Shown here in pieces: positions 1 through 20,436 of a stretch of DNA of 20,436 bases. The stretch comes from a virus (lineage: Duplodnaviria; Heunggongvirae; Uroviricota; Caudoviricetes), in the IMG/VR virus record IMGVR_UViG_2690316086_000007, positions 1 to 20,436 of that record; one strand, written 5' to 3'. The position numbers were made by a program, and so were the translations under genes. The notes beneath the pieces were generated by a model. The model was not told the DNA's origin, did not search any database, and was given only the letters and a program-made list of their open reading frames with translations. Every line of letters begins with the position of its first letter. Position 1 is the first letter of the stretch.

Positions 1-73
1 CATCCTGACTTTCCAGAACCATACGAATCGCCCGCTGACGGACTTCGGGGGAAAAACGAGTATTTTTAGTCAT
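1..73 (-). CDS. IS3-family transposase OrfA, N-terminal 24 codons only (partial, runs off window)
   Basis: Minus-strand ATG at 71-73 preceded by GAGG RBS; translation MTKNTRFSPEVRQRAIRMVLESQD. It differs from the right-hand copy at two residues (I/V, D/G). Confidence 0.8.
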   Translation of the reverse strand, partial: MTKNTRFSPEVRQRAIRMVLESQD

Positions 74-127
74 CCTGTTTACCTCTTTCTCAGGGAGTTT
101 AGTCTCCAGGATTTCCGGGGCGGTTCA
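1..127 (-). mobile_element. IS3-family insertion sequence (IS629/IS3411-like), partial: terminal inverted repeat plus 5' end of orfA; element continues beyond window start
   Basis: Reverse complement of 1-127 reads TGAACCGCCCCGGAAATCCTGGAGACTAAACTCCCTGAGAAAGAGGTAAACAGGATG..., which is also found in direct orientation at 20310-20436. The terminus TGAACCGCCCC and the OrfA N-terminus MTKNTRFSPEVRQRA match the IS629-type IS3 family as I recall it. Confidence 0.85.
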
Positions 128-2934: not shown

Positions 2935-2952
2935 AACATAAGGAAAAGCGAC

Positions 2953-3912
2953 ATGAAAATTTGTATCGACGACGGCTCCACCAACATCAAGCTGGCATGG
3001 GCTGAGAACGGCGAACGCCGCAACGCCATCAGCCCGAACAGCTTCAAGTCGGAATGGTCTGCGCCGTTCGGTGGCACGCAGCCCGCGAACTACATGCTTG
3101 ATGGCGTGCGCTATGGTTTTGATCCGGTCAGCGATCGCTTTGTCCAGACGACCGACACGCAATACCAGTACAGCGATGTGAATGTCATTGCCATTCATCA
3201 CGCACTGGTCAAATCAGGCATCACGCCACAGGAGGTGGATGTGGTTGTCACCCTGCCACTGAGCGAGTATTTCGACACAAACGCACAGCCGGATATGGCC
3301 AACATCAGCCGCAAAAAATCGAACGTTATGCGCCCGGTGGAGTACCAGAACGGCGAAGCATTCACTATCCGTAACGTACGGGTTATGCCTGAATCCATTC
3401 CGGCTGGCTTTAAAGCACTGGCTGACATGAGTCCGTTTGAATCCCTGCTGATTGTGGATTTAGGCGGAACCACACTGGATGTGGCAAAGGTTCAGGGGCA
3501 ACTGGCAGGTATCAGCCAGGTGTTTTGCGATCCACACGTAGGCGTTTCCCTGATGGCCGATGCCGTACTGTCGGTGATGGCCACTAACGGTATGCGTACC
3601 AGTCACCACATCGCCAATACCATTATCGAACATCGCCATGATGAAGCCTGGTTGCGCCAGCACATCCACAATGACGCGCATTACGCCAGCCTGATGGCGG
3701 TTATTCGTGAAAAGGAAGAAACACTGAAACAACGCGTGATCCGCGCGCTGGCGGGCTTTTCGGGTTACGGGCGGGTGATGGTTGTCGGTGGCGGGGCGGA
3801 GATTGTGGCACCCGCTATCCGCGAAGCCTGCGGAGTTAATGCGACTTTCATCGCGGACGGGGTGCCACAGTTTGCTCTGGTTAATGGGCTGTACGCAATG
3901 GACAAGGAGTAA
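2953..3912 (+). CDS. parM: ParM/StbA-family actin-like segregation ATPase
   Basis: 319 aa; collinear similarity to plasmid R1 ParM as recalled (IDDGSTNIKL, ISPNSFK, YSDVNV..HHAL, VMPESIPAG, IDLGGTTLD, FSGY, VGGGAEI, LVNG). RBS AAGGA 8 nt upstream of ATG. Confidence 0.85.
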   Translation: MKICIDDGSTNIKLAWAENGERRNAISPNSFKSEWSAPFGGTQPANYMLDGVRYGFDPVSDRFVQTTDTQYQYSDVNVIAIHHALVKSGITPQEVDVVVTLPLSEYFDTNAQPDMANISRKKSNVMRPVEYQNGEAFTIRNVRVMPESIPAGFKALADMSPFESLLIVDLGGTTLDVAKVQGQLAGISQVFCDPHVGVSLMADAVLSVMATNGMRTSHHIANTIIEHRHDEAWLRQHIHNDAHYASLMAVIREKEETLKQRVIRALAGFSGYGRVMVVGGGAEIVAPAIREACGVNATFIADGVPQFALVNGLYAMDKE

Positions 3913-3916
3913 ACCA

Positions 3917-4228
3917 ATGACGACACCAACCAGACGGATAAGTTTCTATCTGAAGCCCGCCGCCGTCAAGAACGAAGGCGAAGCATGCGCCTGGCTGGAC
4001 AGCCTTACACCAGAAGCCCGCAAAAGTGGTCAACGCGTGGCTTTTCTGGCCGGACTGGCACTTATGAAAATTAATCCGGCAGAGGCTTACCGACTGGCTG
4101 CATGGGCTGACGATGAAGCGTTATCCCTGACACAAACCAGGACAGAACGCCCCGCATCACAGCCAGTATCAACCGCACAGATAACCAGTCAGATGGCCGG
4201 AAATATCCGGGCGTTATTTCCTGAATAA
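3917..4228 (+). CDS. parR: ParR/StbB-like partition adaptor (ribbon-helix-helix type)
   Basis: 103 aa from ATG 3917, 4 nt after the parM stop, with GGAG RBS. Similar to R1 ParR as recalled (ISFYLKP.., AFLAGLAL, C-terminal ..RALFPE). The longer ORF from 3782 overlaps parM and is rejected. Confidence 0.7.
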   Translation: MTTPTRRISFYLKPAAVKNEGEACAWLDSLTPEARKSGQRVAFLAGLALMKINPAEAYRLAAWADDEALSLTQTRTERPASQPVSTAQITSQMAGNIRALFPE

Positions 4229-4236
4229 CACAACAT

Positions 4237-15614: not shown

Positions 15615-16511
15615 ATGCCTGCTGTTGACCTTTCCCAGTTACCGGACCCCGCCATTATCGCGGAGCCTGATTTTGAGGCAATTCTGGCTGACACAAAGGC
15701 CATGATGATTGCGGCTTATCCCGCCGAACAGCGTGAAGCCGTCTCCGCCGCGCTGGAGCTGGAATCGGAACCCCTGAACGTTATCGCCCAGATAACAGCG
15801 TTTCGTGAAATGCTGTTACGCCAGCGGGTCAATGAGGGGGCACGGGCCTGCATGTTAAGCCACAGCACCGGGACAGACCTGGACAACCTCGCGGGCAATA
15901 TGAACACAAAGCGCCTGACCATCACTCCGGCAACGGATACCACCGACGCGGTGATGGAGAGTGACACCTCACTGAGACTGCGGGCGCAGCGGGCGTACGA
16001 CGGCCTGAGTGTTGCTGGCCCGTCAGGTGCATACGAGTATTTTGCCCGCAGCGCCAGCGGTCTGGTGCGTGATGCGCGGGCCATCAGCCCGTCTCCGGCA
16101 AATGTGACGGTTTCCATCCTGTCCACTGAAGGCGACGGCACAGCAACGGAGGCGTTGCTTAATACCGTTCGCGCCGTTCTGAATGCAGAGGATACCCGTC
16201 CGGTGGCCGACCGCCTGACCGTACAGAGTGCCAGAATCGTGACATGGCGGCTGAATGCAAAACTGTACTTTTACCCCGGCCCGGAATCCGAACCTATTCT
16301 GGCTGCGGCGGAATCGTCGTTCAGGAAGTGGCTGGCTGAGCAGGGGCTTATCGGTCAGGACGTGGCGTTGTCCGCCATTGCTGCCGCACTGCATGTGCAC
16401 GGTGTGCAACGCGTGGAGATAATCGAACCCACACAGAATATGGCCATCAGCGACATACAGGCGGCGCGCTGTGAGTCGTTCACCATCAGCGAAGGTGGGC
16501 GCAATGAGTAA
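15615..16511 (+). CDS. J: Baseplate assembly protein, P2 gpJ-like
   Basis: 298 aa; LESEPL, RQRVNE, KRLTITPA, AVMESDT, GLSVAG, SPSPA, RPVADRLTVQSA, YPGPESEPI and GVQRVE are collinear with P2 J. Confidence 0.85.
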   Translation: MPAVDLSQLPDPAIIAEPDFEAILADTKAMMIAAYPAEQREAVSAALELESEPLNVIAQITAFREMLLRQRVNEGARACMLSHSTGTDLDNLAGNMNTKRLTITPATDTTDAVMESDTSLRLRAQRAYDGLSVAGPSGAYEYFARSASGLVRDARAISPSPANVTVSILSTEGDGTATEALLNTVRAVLNAEDTRPVADRLTVQSARIVTWRLNAKLYFYPGPESEPILAAAESSFRKWLAEQGLIGQDVALSAIAAALHVHGVQRVEIIEPTQNMAISDIQAARCESFTISEGGRNE

Positions 16512-17034
16512 TTCGCTGTTACCACCATCAGCCAGCAATTTCATGCGTTGTGCCGAAGCCGTCGGAACGCGCATTACAGACATTCCGGTAGACCTCAACA
16601 CGCTGTGGTCGCCGGACACATGCCCGGTGCATCTGCTGCCTTATCTCGCCTGGGCATTTTCCGTTGACCGCTGGGATCGCAACTGGCCGGAAGAGACAAA
16701 GCGACAGGTTATTCGTGATGCATGGCTGATACACCGACACAAAGGGACCATCAGCGCACTGCGCCGGGCCATTGAGCCGCTGGGATACCTCATTCGTGTG
16801 TCTGAGTGGTGGGAGTTCGGCGGAGAACCGGGAACATTTACCGTTGAAGTCGGCACGCTGGACAGTGGCGTGACGGAGGAAATGTATCTGGAAATGGAGC
16901 GGTTGATTGCTGATGCCCGCCCGGTCAGCCGCCACATGACAGGGCTGAATATCATTCAGGAGATCCCGGGAGATATTTTCGCAGCGGCAGCAACTTACGA
17001 CGGTGAAGTCATTACCATCTATCCGGACGATTAA
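16504..17034 (+). CDS. I: Baseplate/tail-fibre attachment protein, P2 gpI-like
   Basis: ATG 16504 overlaps the J 3' end; [49 protein letters not shown] are collinear with P2 I. The longer ORF from 16471 is rejected. Confidence 0.8.
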
Positions 17035-17036
17035 GC

Positions 17037-19037
17037 ATGAGTACCACAACACGAAAATTTAAAACCATTATCACCGATACGGGTGCCAAAAAATTAGCGC
17101 AGGCAGCCGCACCAGATGGTAAACCCGTCCGCCTGACACATATGGCCGTGGGTGACGGCGGCGGTACTTTACCCACGCCAGACAGTAAGCAGACCCGTCT
17201 TGTGCGTGAGGTGTGGCGACATACCGTTAATCGCGTCTTCCTGGACGCAACACATCAGAACCGCATTATTGCGGAGCTGGCTATTCCTCCAGAAACGGGC
17301 GGATTCTGGATCCGGGAAATTGGTGTGTTTGATGAGCACGGCGATTTAATCGCGGTAGGCAATACTGCCGAAAGTTACAAGCCAGCCGTTGCCGAAGGGT
17401 CCGGTCGTGCACAGACATTTCGCACCATTCTGACCGTATCCAGCACTGCCACCGTGGCACTTACCGTGGATAACACCATGGTGATGGCCACAGTGGATTA
17501 CGTGGATGACAAACTGAAAGAGCATGAACAGTCACGACGTCACCCGGACGCCTCGCTGACCGCAAAAGGCTTTGTTCAACTCAGTAGCGCCACTAACAGC
17601 GTGTCTGAAACACAAGCTGCAACGCCGAAAGCAGTAAAGGACGCGTATGACCTTGCTAACGGGAAATATACTGCGCAGGATGCCAGCACGACGCGAAAAG
17701 GCCTTGTTCAGCTCAGTAGCGCCACCAATAGCGATTCTGAAACGCTGGCGGCAACGCCAAAGGCGGTAAAGGCAGCATATGACCTTGCTAACGGGAAATA
17801 TACCGCACAGGACGCTACCACAGAGCGAAAAGGTCTTGTCCAGCTCAGTAGTGCCACCAACAGCGATTCTGAAACGCTGGCGGCAACGCCAAAGGCGGTA
17901 AAGGCAGCATATGACCTTGCTAATGGCAAATACACCGCACAGGATGCAACAACAGCACAAAAAGGGATAGTCCAGCTTACTAGTGCAACCAACAGCACGT
18001 CTGAAACGCTTGCCGCGACTCCGAAAGCGGTGAAAGCTGCTAATGACAATGCAAACGGGCGTGTGCCCTCTGGACGTAAGGTTAATGGCAAACCACTGAC
18101 CAATGATGTCAATGTTACATCACAGGATATTTTTAACGATCAGAGTATTGAGATTGGTGCAAACCAGAATCTGGATAATTACAAAACGCCGGGGCTGTAC
18201 CATCAGCCTGCGAATGCCAATACAAGTGCAGCGCTGAAATACCCAGAGAATCTTGCCGGTACACTGGTTGTGCTTAAAAGTGCCGGGATAACACAGATTT
18301 ACTATGTGTATAACACATCCAGAAGCTATACCCGCAGCCAGTACTCAACGGGTGACTGGACAGCATGGACGCCGCAGGATTCATTTCCTGTAGGTGCGGC
18401 GATTCCGTGGCCTTCTGATTCAGTGCCTACAGGCTATGCCGTTATGCAGGGGCAGACTTTTGATAAAACAACCTATCCCCTGCTTGCAGCAGCTTATCCC
18501 TCTGGTGTACTCCCCGATATGCGTGGCTGGACAATCAAGGGCAAGCCCGCAAGTGGTCGAGCCGTATTGTCTCAGGAACAGGATGGCATTAAATCGCACA
18601 CCCACAGTGCCAGCGCATCCAGTACGGATTTGGGTACGAAAACCACATCGTCGTTTGATTACGGTACTAAATCAACGAATAACACAGGTGCACATACCCA
18701 CAATGTATCTGGTACTGCAAATAGTGCTGGCGCACATACTCATACCGTTCCATTAAGGAGACCAAACAGTGGAGGTATGAATTTCGACTGGCTTGATGGT
18801 GCATCAAGTGGCACGGTCGTGGGGAATGGAACAGTGCCTTCTTCTGGTGCACACACCCACTCAGTATCAGGCACTGCTGCAAGTGCAGGGGCGCATGCAC
18901 ATACAGTTGGTATTGGCGCTCATACGCACTCTGTTGCGATTGGTTCACATGGACATACCATCACCGTTAACGCTGCTGGTAACGCGGAAAACACCGTTAA
19001 AAACATCGCATTTAATTATATTGTGAGGCTTGCATAA
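17037..19037 (+). CDS. H: Tail fibre protein, P2 gpH-like N-terminus with a His-rich (HxH) C-terminal tip
   Basis: 666 aa; N-terminal ~190 aa collinear with P2 H ([62 protein letters not shown]). C-terminus carries repeated GAHTH/GAHAH/GSHGH motifs and ends ..[11 protein letters not shown]. Confidence 0.9.
17565..18062 (+). repeat. In-frame tandem repeat (4 units of 132 bp / 44 aa, last unit truncated) inside tail-fibre gene H
   Basis: Units start at 17565, 17697, 17829 and 17961 (KG[FLI]VQL[ST][31 protein letters not shown]..). Units 2 and 3 are near-identical at the nucleotide level. P2 H has two such units as recalled. Confidence 0.85.
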
Positions 19038-19654
19038 TGGCATTCAGAATGAGTGAACAATCACGTACTGTAAAAATTTATAACCTGCTGGCCGGAACTA
19101 ATGAGTTTATTGGTGAAGGTGACGCATATATTCCACCTCATACAGGGCTGCCAGCTAATTCTACAGATATCGCCCCACCGGAAATTCCTGCTGGCTTTGT
19201 GGCAGTTTTTAACAGTGAAAATGAATCGTGGAATATTGTTGAAGACCATCGTGGTAAAACGGTCTATGACGTGGCCTCGGGGGACGCGTTGTTTATTTCT
19301 GAACCCGGACCGCTACCAGAGAATGTCACCTGGTTGTCGCCAGCAGGGGAGTATCAGAAGTGGGACGGCGTATCCTGGGTGAAGGATGAGGAAGCAGAAA
19401 AACTGTTTCGGATACGGGAAGCGGAAGAGAAAAAGGCAAGGTTGATCCAGGAGGCAACAGATAACATCGCAATTCTGCAGGATGCAGTTAATCTTGAAAT
19501 AGCAACAAACGAGGAAAATTCACAACTGGATTCCTGGAGAAAATACAGAGTATTAGTGAGTCGAATTGACACCAGTACAGCTCCGGATATCGTATGGCCA
19601 GAGCTGATGAATCAGGGTTATGTGCGGGAGGACGAGCAGATAACTTCAGACTGA
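19037..19654 (+). CDS. G: Tail fibre assembly chaperone, P2 gpG/Tfa-like
   Basis: ATG overlaps the H stop (TAATG); 205 aa; positional and compositional match to Tfa-family chaperones that follow tail-fibre genes. Confidence 0.75.
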
Positions 19655-20181
19655 AATTTAGTGATGAATGTTGAATCATCAGGAATATCATGCAATACCA
19701 ATGCATGAGCACCTATTGTGACATTGTTTCCTATACGCACTTTGCCACCAAGAATGGTGGCATTACAACCAATGGTCACATTATGTCCTATAACAATATC
19801 CATATCATTAAAATCACCACGTAGCCCAATAGTTACCCCTGGTTTTATTGAACAATTTTCACCGATGGTTACTTTGTGACCGATAACAACACTATTGAGA
19901 TAAGAAATATCAAAGCCTTTCCCTATATTTACAGTTAAAGGGACTGTTACATTATATTTATCAAGAATGAAACGTTCTATTTTCCCCGCAATCTTCCGAC
20001 AGTATCCGCCTTTATCAAAAAGGTATTTGGCTATGCGCCACCAAAATAAATAACGAACTCTTCTATGTTTTATTGCGCGAACAATTGCCTTTCGCCAGGA
20101 GAAAGGACGCTCGCTACCGATTACTTCATAGTGAATACAGTCTTTAAGTTCATTAATATTCATATCTCTATTATTTAGCAT
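19618..20181 (-). CDS. Hexapeptide-repeat (left-handed beta-helix) acetyltransferase, WcaF/WbbJ/CysE-like; AT-rich moron
   Basis: 187 aa; repeated [LIV]G..X hexads ([56 protein letters not shown]) and N-terminal FWWR segment as in small sugar O-acetyltransferases. About 35% GC against ~55% for the phage genes. 3' end overlaps G convergently by 37 bp. Confidence 0.75.
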
Positions 20182-20309
20182 AAGATAATCATGTGACCAA
20201 TTATTGTAATAATTTTAATGGTATGTTTCTACTGGCTATCCAGCGCGTCTGATATCCGGTAACAAATCGTTAACACTGGTGCAATCAAATGGTGAGTGTT
20301 AAGACTGGC

Positions 20310-20436
20310 TGAACCGCCCCGGAAATCCTGGAGACTAAACTCCCTGAGAAAGAGGTAAACAGGATGACTAAAAATACTCGTTTTTCCCCCGAGGTCCGTC
20401 AACGGGCAGTTCGTATGGTTCTGGAAAGTCAGGGCG
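20310..20436 (+). mobile_element. IS3-family insertion sequence (IS629/IS3411-like), partial: terminal inverted repeat plus 5' end of orfA; element continues beyond window end
   Basis: TGAACCGCCCCGGAAATCCTGGAGACTAAACTCCCTGAGAAAGAGGTAAACAGGATGACTAAAAATACTCG...; inverted copy of 1-127, with 6 mismatches clustered in the last ~45 bp. Confidence 0.85.
20364..20436 (+). CDS. IS3-family transposase OrfA, N-terminal 24 codons only (partial, runs off window)
   Basis: ATG 20364 with GAGG RBS; MTKNTRFSPEVRQRAVRMVLESQG, which matches the canonical IS629-type OrfA N-terminus as recalled. Confidence 0.8.
   Translation, partial: MTKNTRFSPEVRQRAVRMVLESQG

What the first reader, a model, noticed from the sequence alone, without database searches (positions are those of the whole stretch)
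19618..20309. AT-rich hexapeptide acetyltransferase moron convergent with and overlapping the tail-fibre chaperone gene, 129 bp from the right IS
The gene has ~35% GC against ~55% for the phage, is on the opposite strand, and its 3' end overlaps G by 37 bp. It sits where P2 carries Z/fun, the second cargo hotspot. A WcaF/WbbJ-like sugar O-acetyltransferase beside receptor-binding genes suggests lysogenic conversion of surface polysaccharide (O-antigen or capsule) to block superinfection. Related left-handed beta-helix enzymes also acetylate antibiotics (XAT/Vat class), so a resistance function is an alternative. The IS lies just upstream of its promoter region and may alter expression.
Basis: partly seen in the sequence, partly recalled or inferred. 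Interest (0 to 1): 0.5.

Follow-up and report, generated by a model that had tools for sequence, protein, structure and literature searches.

The report
Tail-fibre-linked acetyltransferase-like prophage cargo gene
A small AT-rich cargo gene beside the tail-fibre genes of a defective P2-like E. coli prophage encodes an acetyltransferase-like protein of unknown function; it moves between phages together with the fibre-chaperone gene, and it has replaced the histidine that this enzyme family normally needs, yet is strongly conserved.

Summary
A 181/187-codon ORF lies at 19618-20163/20181 on the minus strand. Its GC is 37% against 55-56% for the phage. It converges on the tail-fibre chaperone gene and overlaps it by 37 bp. 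An IS629/IS1203-like element starts at 20310.

The protein is a left-handed beta-helix protein with the CysE/WcaB fold (PHROG 2154, unknown function). It is not WcaF/WbbJ-like, not XAT/Vat, and not a true serine acetyltransferase.

- Relatives sit immediately convergent with a chaperone gene in 12 of 28 phage lineages. The same chaperone-plus-gene module occurs in P2-like prophages, P1-like plasmids and 47-kb phage-plasmids.
- This lineage has replaced the family's catalytic His-Asp pair with Tyr88 and Thr73. His is kept in 87 of 99 and 116 of 119 relatives. dN/dS is still about 0.08.
- The overlap comes from a 2-bp deletion at the chaperone gene's stop codon.

My best reading is a lysogen-expressed modifier of an envelope glycan with non-canonical chemistry (confidence about 0.4). 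A non-catalytic role is a serious rival. The family is already annotated but uncharacterised. Interest is moderate.

The parts
19618..20181 (-). LbH acyltransferase-like gene ('sat'). The longest ORF is 187 aa from the ATG at 20181; RefSeq starts at the ATG at 20163 (181 aa, WP_001447286.1).
   Evidence: ORF list; RefSeq annotation; Pfam Hexapep; PHROG 2154, E = 4e-79; AF2 model pLDDT 91.5; dN/dS 0.07-0.08.
19900..19902 (-). Codon for Tyr88 (181-aa numbering). It occupies the column of the catalytic His of the family (E. coli CysE His158).
   Evidence: HMMER alignment to PDB serine acetyltransferases; MAFFT alignment A1. The column is His in 87/99 and 116/119 relatives. CysE numbering was verified against 1t3d.
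19945..19947 (-). Codon for Thr73, in the column of CysE Asp143, the partner of the catalytic His.
   Evidence: Other phage relatives have Asp or Glu here; the Tyr clade has Thr, Lys or Val.
19618..19654 (.). 37-bp overlap of the 3' ends of the two convergent genes.
   Evidence: It arose from a 2-bp deletion at the chaperone gene's stop codon (GAG CTG TGA became GAG CTG ATG at about 19604-19609), judged against loci L038 and L043, where the chaperone ends WPEL* and a 10-bp spacer follows.
20203..20231 (-). Sigma-70-like promoter candidate, TAGAAA-17-TACAAT, 21 nt upstream of the first ATG.
   Evidence: Consensus scans. This is weak evidence: 8 sites found against 3.6 +/- 1.5 expected. The site lies inside the stretch that stays with the gene in P2-like, P1-like and 47-kb plasmid contexts.
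20182..20309 (-). Retained 128-bp upstream region. Its distal end is one arm of the hairpin that follows gene U in IS-free relatives. GGC at 20307-20309 is one copy of the target-site duplication.
   Evidence: Comparison with the IS-free locus L002 and with the far junction in L001.
20310..20436 (+). Left end of an IS3-family (IS629/IS1203-like) element. The terminal inverted repeat starts at 20310 and the transposase orfA ATG is at 20364, reading away from the gene. In the source genome this IS is itself interrupted by ISCro1 (IS66 family).
19037..19654 (+). Tail-fibre assembly (chaperone) gene, the P2 G / lambda Tfa family. It is 15 codons longer than in close relatives.
   Evidence: Pfam Caudo_TAP, E = 1.6e-39; C-terminal comparison.
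17037..19037 (+). Tail fibre gene (P2 H equivalent, 666 aa). The distal ~220 aa are about 65% identical to the tips of lambda Stf and T4 gp37.
   Evidence: Pfam Phage_tail_fib, Phage_fiber_2 x4 and Collar; tblastn against phages.

Best explanation
The gene is a horizontally acquired single-gene moron. It encodes a soluble, probably trimeric, left-handed beta-helix protein with the CysE/WcaB fold.

It is part of a mobile host-range module: fibre tip, chaperone gene, then this gene in convergent orientation. Recombination moves that module among P2-like prophages, P1-like and 47-kb phage-plasmids, and other tailed phages. Here it occupies the P2 fun(Z) slot.

I infer that it is transcribed from its own AT-rich promoter in the lysogen, on the strand opposite the late fibre operon. 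I also infer that it acts in the cytoplasm on a nucleotide- or lipid-linked envelope glycan precursor (LPS core, O-unit, ECA or colanic acid type). That would change the cell surface and give exclusion of related phages or tailocins, or seroconversion.

Shown here: gene reality, fold, family, linkage to the chaperone gene, purifying selection, and loss of the His/Asp pair.
Inferred: expression in the lysogen, a glycan target, and an exclusion phenotype.

Because Tyr88/Thr73 replace the catalytic pair, the chemistry cannot be the textbook His-based O-acetylation. It may be transfer to an amine or substrate-assisted transfer, as in base-less LbH sugar N-acetyltransferases (own knowledge), or a Tyr-dependent variant.
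For: - Real and constrained: 23 alleles with up to 14% nucleotide divergence give dN/dS of 0.07-0.08 at dS up to 0.7, with no stops in 22 of 23.
- Family-invariant Gly, Ile, Glu and Asn positions of the helix are retained.
- Glycan ancestry: the nearest non-phage relatives P0025 and P0038 sit among glycosyltransferases, a flippase and UDP-glucose dehydrogenase.
- Linkage: in 80 IMG/VR loci forming 28 clusters at 90% identity, 12 clusters have a convergent chaperone gene within -37 to +49 bp. The same holds in Hafnia phage yong2, Citrobacter phiNP and the P1-like JL22.
- Mobility: the identical 618-nt + 546-nt module occurs in chromosomal P2-likes, IncY P1-like plasmids and 47-kb phage-plasmids.
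- Moron features: GC 37% against 56%; the same slot and strand as P2 fun(Z); a promoter-like site inside the co-transferred upstream stretch.
- Precedent: the prophage-borne LbH O-acetyltransferase NeuO modifies K1 capsule and raises phage resistance (PMC3046976; PMC13001214, title and abstract only).
Against: - The catalytic His and its Asp partner are replaced. The NeuO structure paper states that all LbH family members crystallised up to then share a catalytic histidine (PMC3046976).
- No glycan-pathway gene accompanies the gene in any phage context examined.
- Carriers span many serotypes (O121:H19, O103, O166:H15, O80:H26, ETEC, APEC). An O-antigen-specific acceptor is therefore unlikely.
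- The linked fibre tip resembles lambda Stf and T4 gp37. From my own knowledge their receptors include a protein, OmpC.
- There are no expression or phenotype data. The JL22 paper calls the gene's role unknown (PMC9603915).
- The promoter evidence is only a weak consensus match.
Confidence: 0.4

Rival explanations
1. Neofunctionalised pseudo-enzyme. The protein keeps the LbH/CoA-binding scaffold but no longer transfers acyl groups. It would act by binding: sequestering a precursor, inhibiting a host enzyme, or sensing acetyl-CoA.
For: Both members of the catalytic pair were lost together. The loss appears to have happened once, at the base of a clade that is monophyletic in a crude NJ tree. 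That clade has since diverged to about 51-57% identity while keeping Tyr invariant. Selection is strongly purifying, so the protein is functional rather than decaying.
Against: The rest of the helix, including family-invariant residues, is unchanged. From my own knowledge, LbH N-acetyltransferases without a catalytic base exist, so loss of His does not prove loss of activity. No binding partner is encoded next to it.
Confidence: 0.2
2. Anti-phage defence or small-molecule detoxification gene that does not act on the receptor. One version is acetylation of an antibiotic, toxin or phage-derived metabolite, including the reader's XAT/Vat idea.
For: The slot is the fun(Z) position. P2 fun(Z) blocks T5 (record note), and the Z/fun locus is cited as carrying defences (PMC13586616). 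The gene is a self-contained single-gene module.
Against: There is no PADLOC hit even at E = 1. Vat/CatB models score 22-27.5 bits against cutoffs of 300-475. The word 'acetyltransferase' does not occur in the main text of either P2/P4 hotspot paper. The XAT class depends on a catalytic His (own knowledge), which is absent here.
Confidence: 0.12
3. Accessory factor for the phage's own fibre: it modifies or assists the fibre or chaperone during assembly.
For: The physical linkage to the chaperone gene is tight and recurrent across phage types. In this phage the gene is also co-oriented with, and downstream of, the late FI-U tail operon.
Against: It is almost always convergent with the fibre operon rather than inside it. 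Many family members sit beside integrases at prophage ends with no fibre gene nearby. Chaperone and acetyltransferase-like gene do not co-diverge: the first 100 residues of the JL22 chaperone are 91% identical to the window's, but the linked gene product is only 36% identical.
Confidence: 0.08
4. Genuine serine O-acetyltransferase: a metabolic gene that boosts cysteine synthesis, as many annotations say.
For: The best NCBIfam and PDB sequence and fold matches are serine acetyltransferases. Several records label it 'serine acetyltransferase'.
Against: TIGR01172 scores 70.5 against a cutoff of 210.65, and PRK11132 scores 44.2 against 397. His158, Asp143, Asp157 and the GDRHP serine-binding motif (Arg192, His193) are all absent. 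There is only about 70 aa of N-terminal helices, against about 140 in CysE. The C-terminus ends ...SSRT, not with the Ile tail that docks into CysK (own knowledge).
Confidence: 0.02

Closest known systems
NeuO, the polysialic acid O-acetyltransferase of prophage CUS-3 (E. coli K1)
   Different: NeuO belongs to the Maa/LacA-like branch and needs His119 and Trp143 (PMC3046976); the window protein has the CysE/WcaB fold with Tyr in the His column. NeuO is phase-variable through 5' heptanucleotide repeats; no tandem repeats are present here. NeuO's acceptor, polysialic acid, is known; none is known here.
WcaB / EpsC-type short CysE-like polysaccharide O-acetyltransferases
   Same: Similar size (about 160-190 aa) and architecture: a few N-terminal helices followed by the LbH. 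These are among the best-scoring NCBIfam models (EpsC 80.7, WcaB 62.2 bits). Non-phage relatives lie in glycan clusters.
   Different: Scores are far below the equivalog cutoffs (150 and 196). The gene is not in a wca or eps cluster. The His/Asp pair is replaced. A phage-family-specific FWWR motif is present.
Serine O-acetyltransferase CysE
   Different: See the membership test. Catalytic, substrate-binding, N-terminal-domain and C-terminal-tail features are all missing.
P2 fun(Z), the lysogenic-conversion gene between G and FI
   Same: Same slot directly after the chaperone gene, same opposite-strand orientation, non-essential cargo. In locus L088 a relative lies between the chaperone gene and the tail sheath gene (FI), as fun(Z) does in P2.
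   Different: The P2 record places fun(Z) at 15675-17261, about 528 codons, against 181 here, so the two are probably unrelated; I did not compare the sequences. In this phage the FI-U block is inverted, so the gene's upstream neighbour is U.
PHROG 2154: phage 'serine acetyltransferase' genes such as sacF of P1-like JL22, sat of Citrobacter phiNP, and those of Hafnia yong2 and ESSI2 phages
   Same: This is the family the gene belongs to (E = 4e-79), with the same convergent placement next to a chaperone gene.
   Different: phiNP, JL22, ESSI2_ev015 and the other relatives outside the Tyr clade keep the Asp/Glu-His pair. The window, yong2 and a few metagenomic sequences form the Tyr clade. No member has an assigned function (PMC9603915).

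Membership tests
Hexapeptide-repeat / left-handed beta-helix acyltransferase superfamily | Tandem hexapeptide repeats detectable by profile | tested here: met
   Pfam PF00132: E = 1.1e-12, 47.5 bits against a cutoff of 27.
Hexapeptide-repeat / left-handed beta-helix acyltransferase superfamily | LbH fold | tested here: met
Hexapeptide-repeat / left-handed beta-helix acyltransferase superfamily | Catalytic histidine at the active-site position | tested here: not met
   Tyr88 occupies the His column. His is present in 87/99 and 116/119 relatives. The NeuO structure paper states the His is shared by all family members crystallised up to then (PMC3046976).
Hexapeptide-repeat / left-handed beta-helix acyltransferase superfamily | Homotrimer with acyl-CoA bound at subunit interfaces | not testable with these tools
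Serine O-acetyltransferase (CysE) | Score above the curated equivalog cutoff | tested here: not met
   TIGR01172 70.5 against 210.65; NF008349 44.2 against 397; EpsC 80.7 against 150.
Serine O-acetyltransferase (CysE) | His158-Asp143 catalytic pair (PMC8786284) | tested here: not met
   Tyr88 and Thr73 occupy those columns.
Serine O-acetyltransferase (CysE) | Serine-binding residues Asp157, Arg192 and His193 (GDRHP motif) | tested here: not met
   Ser87 aligns with Asp157. The GDRHP stretch aligns with 'ND-MD'.
Serine O-acetyltransferase (CysE) | Full N-terminal helical domain (SATase_N) | tested here: not met
   Only about 70 residues (4 helices) precede the helix, against about 140 in the 273-aa CysE. 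No SATase_N Pfam hit.
WcaB colanic acid acetyltransferase | Equivalog score and location in the wca cluster | tested here: not met
   62.2 against 196 and 59.8 against 194.65 bits. The gene lies in a prophage.
   WbbJ 39.8 against 243; WcaF 26.1 against 192; LacA 31.6 against 347; Maa 30.5 against 314. Only the C-terminal helix turns match.
XAT / Vat / CatB antibiotic acetyltransferases | Profile score above cutoff | tested here: not met
   22.1-27.5 bits against cutoffs of 300-475, with about 40-residue matches.
Prophage lysogenic-conversion glycan O-acetyltransferases (NeuO-like) | Prophage-borne, next to the receptor-binding gene, non-structural | tested here: met
Prophage lysogenic-conversion glycan O-acetyltransferases (NeuO-like) | Catalytic His/Trp and demonstrated glycan acetylation | tested here: not met
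   The His column is Tyr. Glycan acetylation itself cannot be tested with these tools.
Prophage lysogenic-conversion glycan O-acetyltransferases (NeuO-like) | Phase-variable 5' repeat tract | tested here: not met
   No tandem repeats in 19500-20320.
Known anti-phage defence systems (PADLOC) | Match to any defence protein model | tested here: not met
   0 families at E <= 1.
PHROG 2154 (phage protein family of unknown function) | Full-length profile match | tested here: met
   E = 4e-79; residues 5-186 match profile positions 2-184 of 185.

The most novel reading that the evidence does not exclude
The window's gene represents an enterobacterial phage clade of LbH proteins (monophyletic in a crude NJ tree). 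The clade discarded the superfamily's catalytic His-Asp pair once and fixed Tyr in its place. It has since been kept under strong purifying selection while being shuttled with tail-fibre host-range cassettes. On this reading it is a neofunctionalised protein: either a Tyr-dependent or base-less transferase with a new acceptor, or a non-catalytic binder. Its job would be tied to the receptor specificity of the fibre it travels with.
Probability: 0.25. Interest if true: 0.6.

Novelty: new variant of a known kind. Interest (0 to 1): 0.4.

Why it matters
Morons beside tail-fibre genes are a main route by which temperate phages change the bacterial surface, phage sensitivity and virulence.

This gene is in about 3% of complete E. 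coli genomes, including O121 and O103 STEC, ETEC and APEC, and on P1-like and 47-kb phage-plasmids. It is variously labelled 'serine acetyltransferase', 'transferase' or 'LbetaH domain protein', and it has never been tested. Showing what it modifies would explain why it rides with host-range cassettes.

The His-to-Tyr lineage is also a natural test of whether an LbH scaffold can work without the canonical base.

Practically, the 'serine acetyltransferase' label on this lineage is misleading: the residues that define that enzyme are absent.

Tried and rejected
- A single-sequence AF2 run gave an unusable model (pLDDT 56). It was repeated with a 99-sequence alignment.
- The afdb50 fold library was unavailable.
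- PADLOC found nothing.
- The two P2/P4 hotspot papers and the P2-like diversity paper do not mention this gene. Literature searches for a characterised phage hexapeptide or serine acetyltransferase next to a chaperone gene returned only the JL22 paper, which says the function is unknown.
- I looked for glycan-pathway neighbours of phage homologues. I found only one weak GT9-like match (L061, E = 1.6e-4, below cutoff), plus integrases, tail and baseplate genes, a DNA methylase, and a PIN-domain gene. So there is no operon partner.
- I rejected the idea that the 37-bp overlap is a designed antisense arrangement. It is a 2-bp deletion at the chaperone gene's stop codon.
- I rejected the idea that the FI-U inversion was caused by the two inverted IS copies. 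IS-free relatives have the same order.
- I rejected an IS-driven promoter. The IS left end faces the gene and the transposase reads away from it.
- The genome-contig scan gave only distant relatives, because the E. coli representative genome lacks the gene.
- I could not inspect the spatial neighbours of Tyr88, because model coordinates are not exposed.
Full report
**Source and setting.** The window is identical to E. coli O103 strain ML775, NZ_CP193495.1. It covers most of a defective P2-like prophage integrated next to a tRNA cluster near uvrC-pgsA. Replication gene A is truncated by one IS1203 copy, whose end lies at window 97-127 on the minus strand. A second, inverted IS629/IS1203-like copy begins at 20310. 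That copy is itself interrupted by ISCro1. Relative to P2, the FI-FII-E-T-U block is inverted in place, so the order is H, G, the gene under study, then U-T-E-FII-FI on the minus strand, then D and ogr. IS-free relatives such as O121 RM8352 have the same order, so the inversion is not an IS artefact.

**Check of the observation.**
- The ORF runs 19618..20181 on the minus strand (187 aa). RefSeq uses the in-frame ATG at 20163 (181 aa, WP_001447286.1).
- GC is 36.9% (GC3 29%), against 56.2% for the structural genes (capsid GC3 70%).
- It converges on the 205-aa Caudo_TAP chaperone gene at 19037..19654 and overlaps it by 37 bp.
- The IS inverted repeat starts 128 bp upstream of the first ATG. The flanking 3-bp direct repeat GGC shows a simple insertion with nothing deleted.
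- P2 fun(Z) lies on the minus strand between G and FI, so the slot and orientation claim holds.

**What the protein is.**
- Pfam finds hexapeptide repeats.
- The best NCBIfam models are EpsC, CysE and WcaB. All are far below cutoff. The WbbJ, WcaF, LacA, Maa, Vat and CatB models match only about 40-90 residues of generic helix.
- PHROG 2154, of unknown function, matches end to end at E = 4e-79. PADLOC finds nothing.
- With a 99-sequence alignment, AlphaFold gives a confident model (pLDDT 91.5): four N-terminal helices followed by a left-handed beta-helix.
- The nearest non-phage relatives, at about 30-36% identity, are embedded in polysaccharide clusters with glycosyltransferases, a flippase and UDP-glucose dehydrogenase. 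The wider family is therefore the WcaB-like short CysE-fold group of glycan acetyltransferases.

**It is not a serine acetyltransferase, and its active site is unusual.** I verified E. coli CysE numbering against 1t3d. In CysE, His158 is the catalytic residue, activated by Asp143 (PMC8786284). HMMER alignments to PDB SATs and two MAFFT alignments agree on the following:
- The window protein has Tyr88 in the His158 column and Thr73 in the Asp143 column.
- Ser87 aligns with Asp157.
- There is no GDRHP motif.

The His column is His in 87 of 99 homologues and in 116 of 119 representatives at 50% identity drawn from 1.84 billion proteins. Tyr occurs in the window's lineage: the E. coli alleles, metagenomic P0007-P0010, P0013 and P0014, and Hafnia phage yong2. 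One further 50%-identity representative also has Tyr; I did not identify it. Among the 15 aligned phage-family sequences, the Tyr carriers form a monophyletic group in a crude NJ tree. That group is sister to a His-bearing phage clade (the P0015/P0016/P0020/ESSI2 clade), with His-bearing outgroups (phiNP, JL22). The partner column is Asp or Glu in the other phage relatives examined and Thr, Lys or Val in the Tyr clade. This looks like a single ancestral loss of the pair.

**The gene is nevertheless under strong constraint.** Twenty-three alleles recovered from IMG/VR and E. coli loci give dN/dS of 0.07-0.08 at dS up to 0.7. Only one allele carries a stop. Tyr88 is invariant across a clade that has diverged to about 51-57% identity. 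This argues for a working protein with altered chemistry or a new role, not for decay.

**Linkage to the fibre module.**
- In 80 IMG/VR loci (28 clusters at 90% identity), 12 clusters have a convergent chaperone gene within -37 to +49 bp downstream of the gene. This includes homologues only 36-50% identical.
- The same arrangement is seen in Hafnia phage yong2, Citrobacter phiNP, and the P1-like JL22, where the gene lies between the two alternative chaperone genes next to the cin invertase.
- In L088 a relative lies between the chaperone gene and the tail sheath gene, as fun(Z) does in P2.
- Other family members sit next to integrases at prophage ends or beside tail genes.
- In complete E. coli genomes the gene is present in 184 of 5426: 158 chromosomal places and 59 plasmid places, with up to 3 per genome.
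- The same 618-nt chaperone gene plus 546-nt gene, with the same 37-bp overlap, is found in P2-like prophages, IncY P1-like plasmids and 47-kb phage-plasmids.
- Homology upstream of the gene extends at least to window 20251 in every context. That stretch includes the promoter-like TAGAAA-17-TACAAT at 20231..20203. The module thus appears to carry its own expression signals, although the consensus match alone is weak.
- Chaperone and gene do not co-diverge. The first 100 residues of the JL22 chaperone are 91% identical to the window's, but the linked gene product is only 36% identical. The association is therefore re-created or maintained through recombination inside the chaperone gene.

**The overlap explained.** In loci carrying the 91%-identical allele, the chaperone ends ...WPEL* and a 10-bp spacer separates the two stop codons. 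The window lineage lacks 2 bp at that stop (GAG CTG TGA became GAG CTG ATG). This extends the chaperone by 15 residues into the antisense 3' end of the gene. The acetyltransferase-like gene ends at the same place in both. No terminator-like structure lies between the convergent genes. Late H-G transcription must therefore run antisense into the gene. That would favour expression in the lysogen and silencing during lytic growth; this step is inference.

**Effect of the IS.** In IS-free relatives, about 170-190 bp separate the U stop from the gene's start and contain a 9-bp-stem hairpin. The IS inserted in one arm of that hairpin. Its transposase reads away from the gene. The gene keeps its own 128-bp upstream region but is now about 4 kb from the tail operon, so any late read-through is lost. 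I see no basis for IS-driven activation.

**Mechanism.** I commit, at about 0.4, to a lysogen-expressed cytoplasmic LbH transferase that acts on an envelope glycan precursor and changes the cell surface, with non-canonical chemistry. The support is the family's glycan context, the moron features, the persistent linkage to receptor-binding modules, and the NeuO precedent (PMC3046976; PMC13001214). Against it:
- the catalytic pair is lost;
- there are no partner genes;
- carriers span many serotypes;
- the distal ~220 aa of the linked fibre are about 65% identical to lambda Stf and T4 gp37, whose receptors (own knowledge) are OmpC and LPS core rather than O-antigen or capsule.

If a glycan is the target, a conserved one such as LPS core, ECA or colanic acid is more likely than an O-antigen. 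From my own knowledge, LbH sugar N-acetyltransferases such as QdtC and WlbB work without a catalytic base. That gives a precedent for a His-less enzyme acting on an amine.

**Rivals.**
- A non-catalytic, neofunctionalised protein: 0.2.
- Defence or small-molecule acetylation unrelated to the receptor: 0.12, with XAT/Vat essentially excluded.
- A fibre-assembly accessory: 0.08.
- A true serine acetyltransferase: 0.02.

**Novelty and verdict.** The gene family is widely annotated but uncharacterised. The one paper that discusses a member says its role is unknown (PMC9603915). As far as my searches show, the recurrent coupling to the chaperone gene and the His-to-Tyr clade are not described. I therefore rate it a new variant of a known kind, of moderate interest. 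The reading also misses the active-site change.

Noticed in passing
window 1-127 (-) and 20310-20436 (+): The window is bounded by the same end of two inverted IS629/IS1203-like copies; the 31-nt terminal sequence is identical in both. The left copy truncates replication gene A. The right copy is itself split by ISCro1 (IS66 family) in the source genome. The prophage is defective. Inverted IS copies could in principle invert the whole 20-kb segment.
   Followed up: partly
window 19604-19609: A 2-bp deletion at the chaperone gene's stop codon adds 15 residues ([15 protein letters not shown]) to the tail-fibre assembly protein. This extended form is the commoner one among related loci (27 of 40 IMG/VR loci of the cluster).
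   Followed up: yes
L001 10365-19437 and L004 (outside the window); L002: The FI-FII-E-T-U tail operon is inverted in place relative to P2, while D and ogr keep the P2 orientation. The same order is seen in IS-free relatives. A Hok/Gef toxin gene follows ogr at the prophage end.
   Followed up: partly
window 19380-19578 (+): A sub-threshold Rfam hit to IS009 (RF02111): 81.9 bits against a gathering score of 117, E = 1.5e-18, inside the chaperone coding sequence. It may simply reflect sequence homology to other copies of this coding region rather than an RNA gene.
   Followed up: no
window about 2950-4230 (RefSeq features at NZ_CP193495.1 2128327-2129602): The hotspot between gene A and the portal gene carries a ParM-type plasmid segregation pair and an ead/Ea22-like remnant. 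Rousset et al. report a putative partitioning system in about a quarter of P2-like phages (PMC9122126).
   Followed up: no
window 17500-18100 (+): The tail fibre gene contains four tandem ~44-aa Phage_fiber_2 repeats (Pfam E = 1.3e-81). GC falls progressively from 53% to 45% towards the distal tip, then to 46% in the chaperone gene and 37% in the acetyltransferase-like gene. This fits a recently swapped host-range cassette.
   Followed up: partly
L008 (Escherichia phage JL22) 1381-8140: In this P1-like phage-plasmid a His-type family member lies between the two alternative fibre/chaperone gene sets next to the cin invertase. If it is inside the invertible segment, its orientation relative to outside promoters would flip with each inversion.
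   Followed up: no
L061 3021-4124 (-): One IMG/VR phage carries, convergent with and 62 bp downstream of its His-type family member, a 367-aa ORF with a weak heptosyltransferase (GT9) match (E = 1.6e-4, 21.5 bits against a cutoff of 22). This is the only hint of an LPS-core-related neighbour.
   Followed up: no
NZ_CM180508.1 (hit H76) and NZ_CM180511.1 (hit H95): In a few E. coli genomes the gene is itself interrupted by IS1 or is only partly present. It is therefore dispensable in some hosts despite the overall purifying selection.
   Followed up: no
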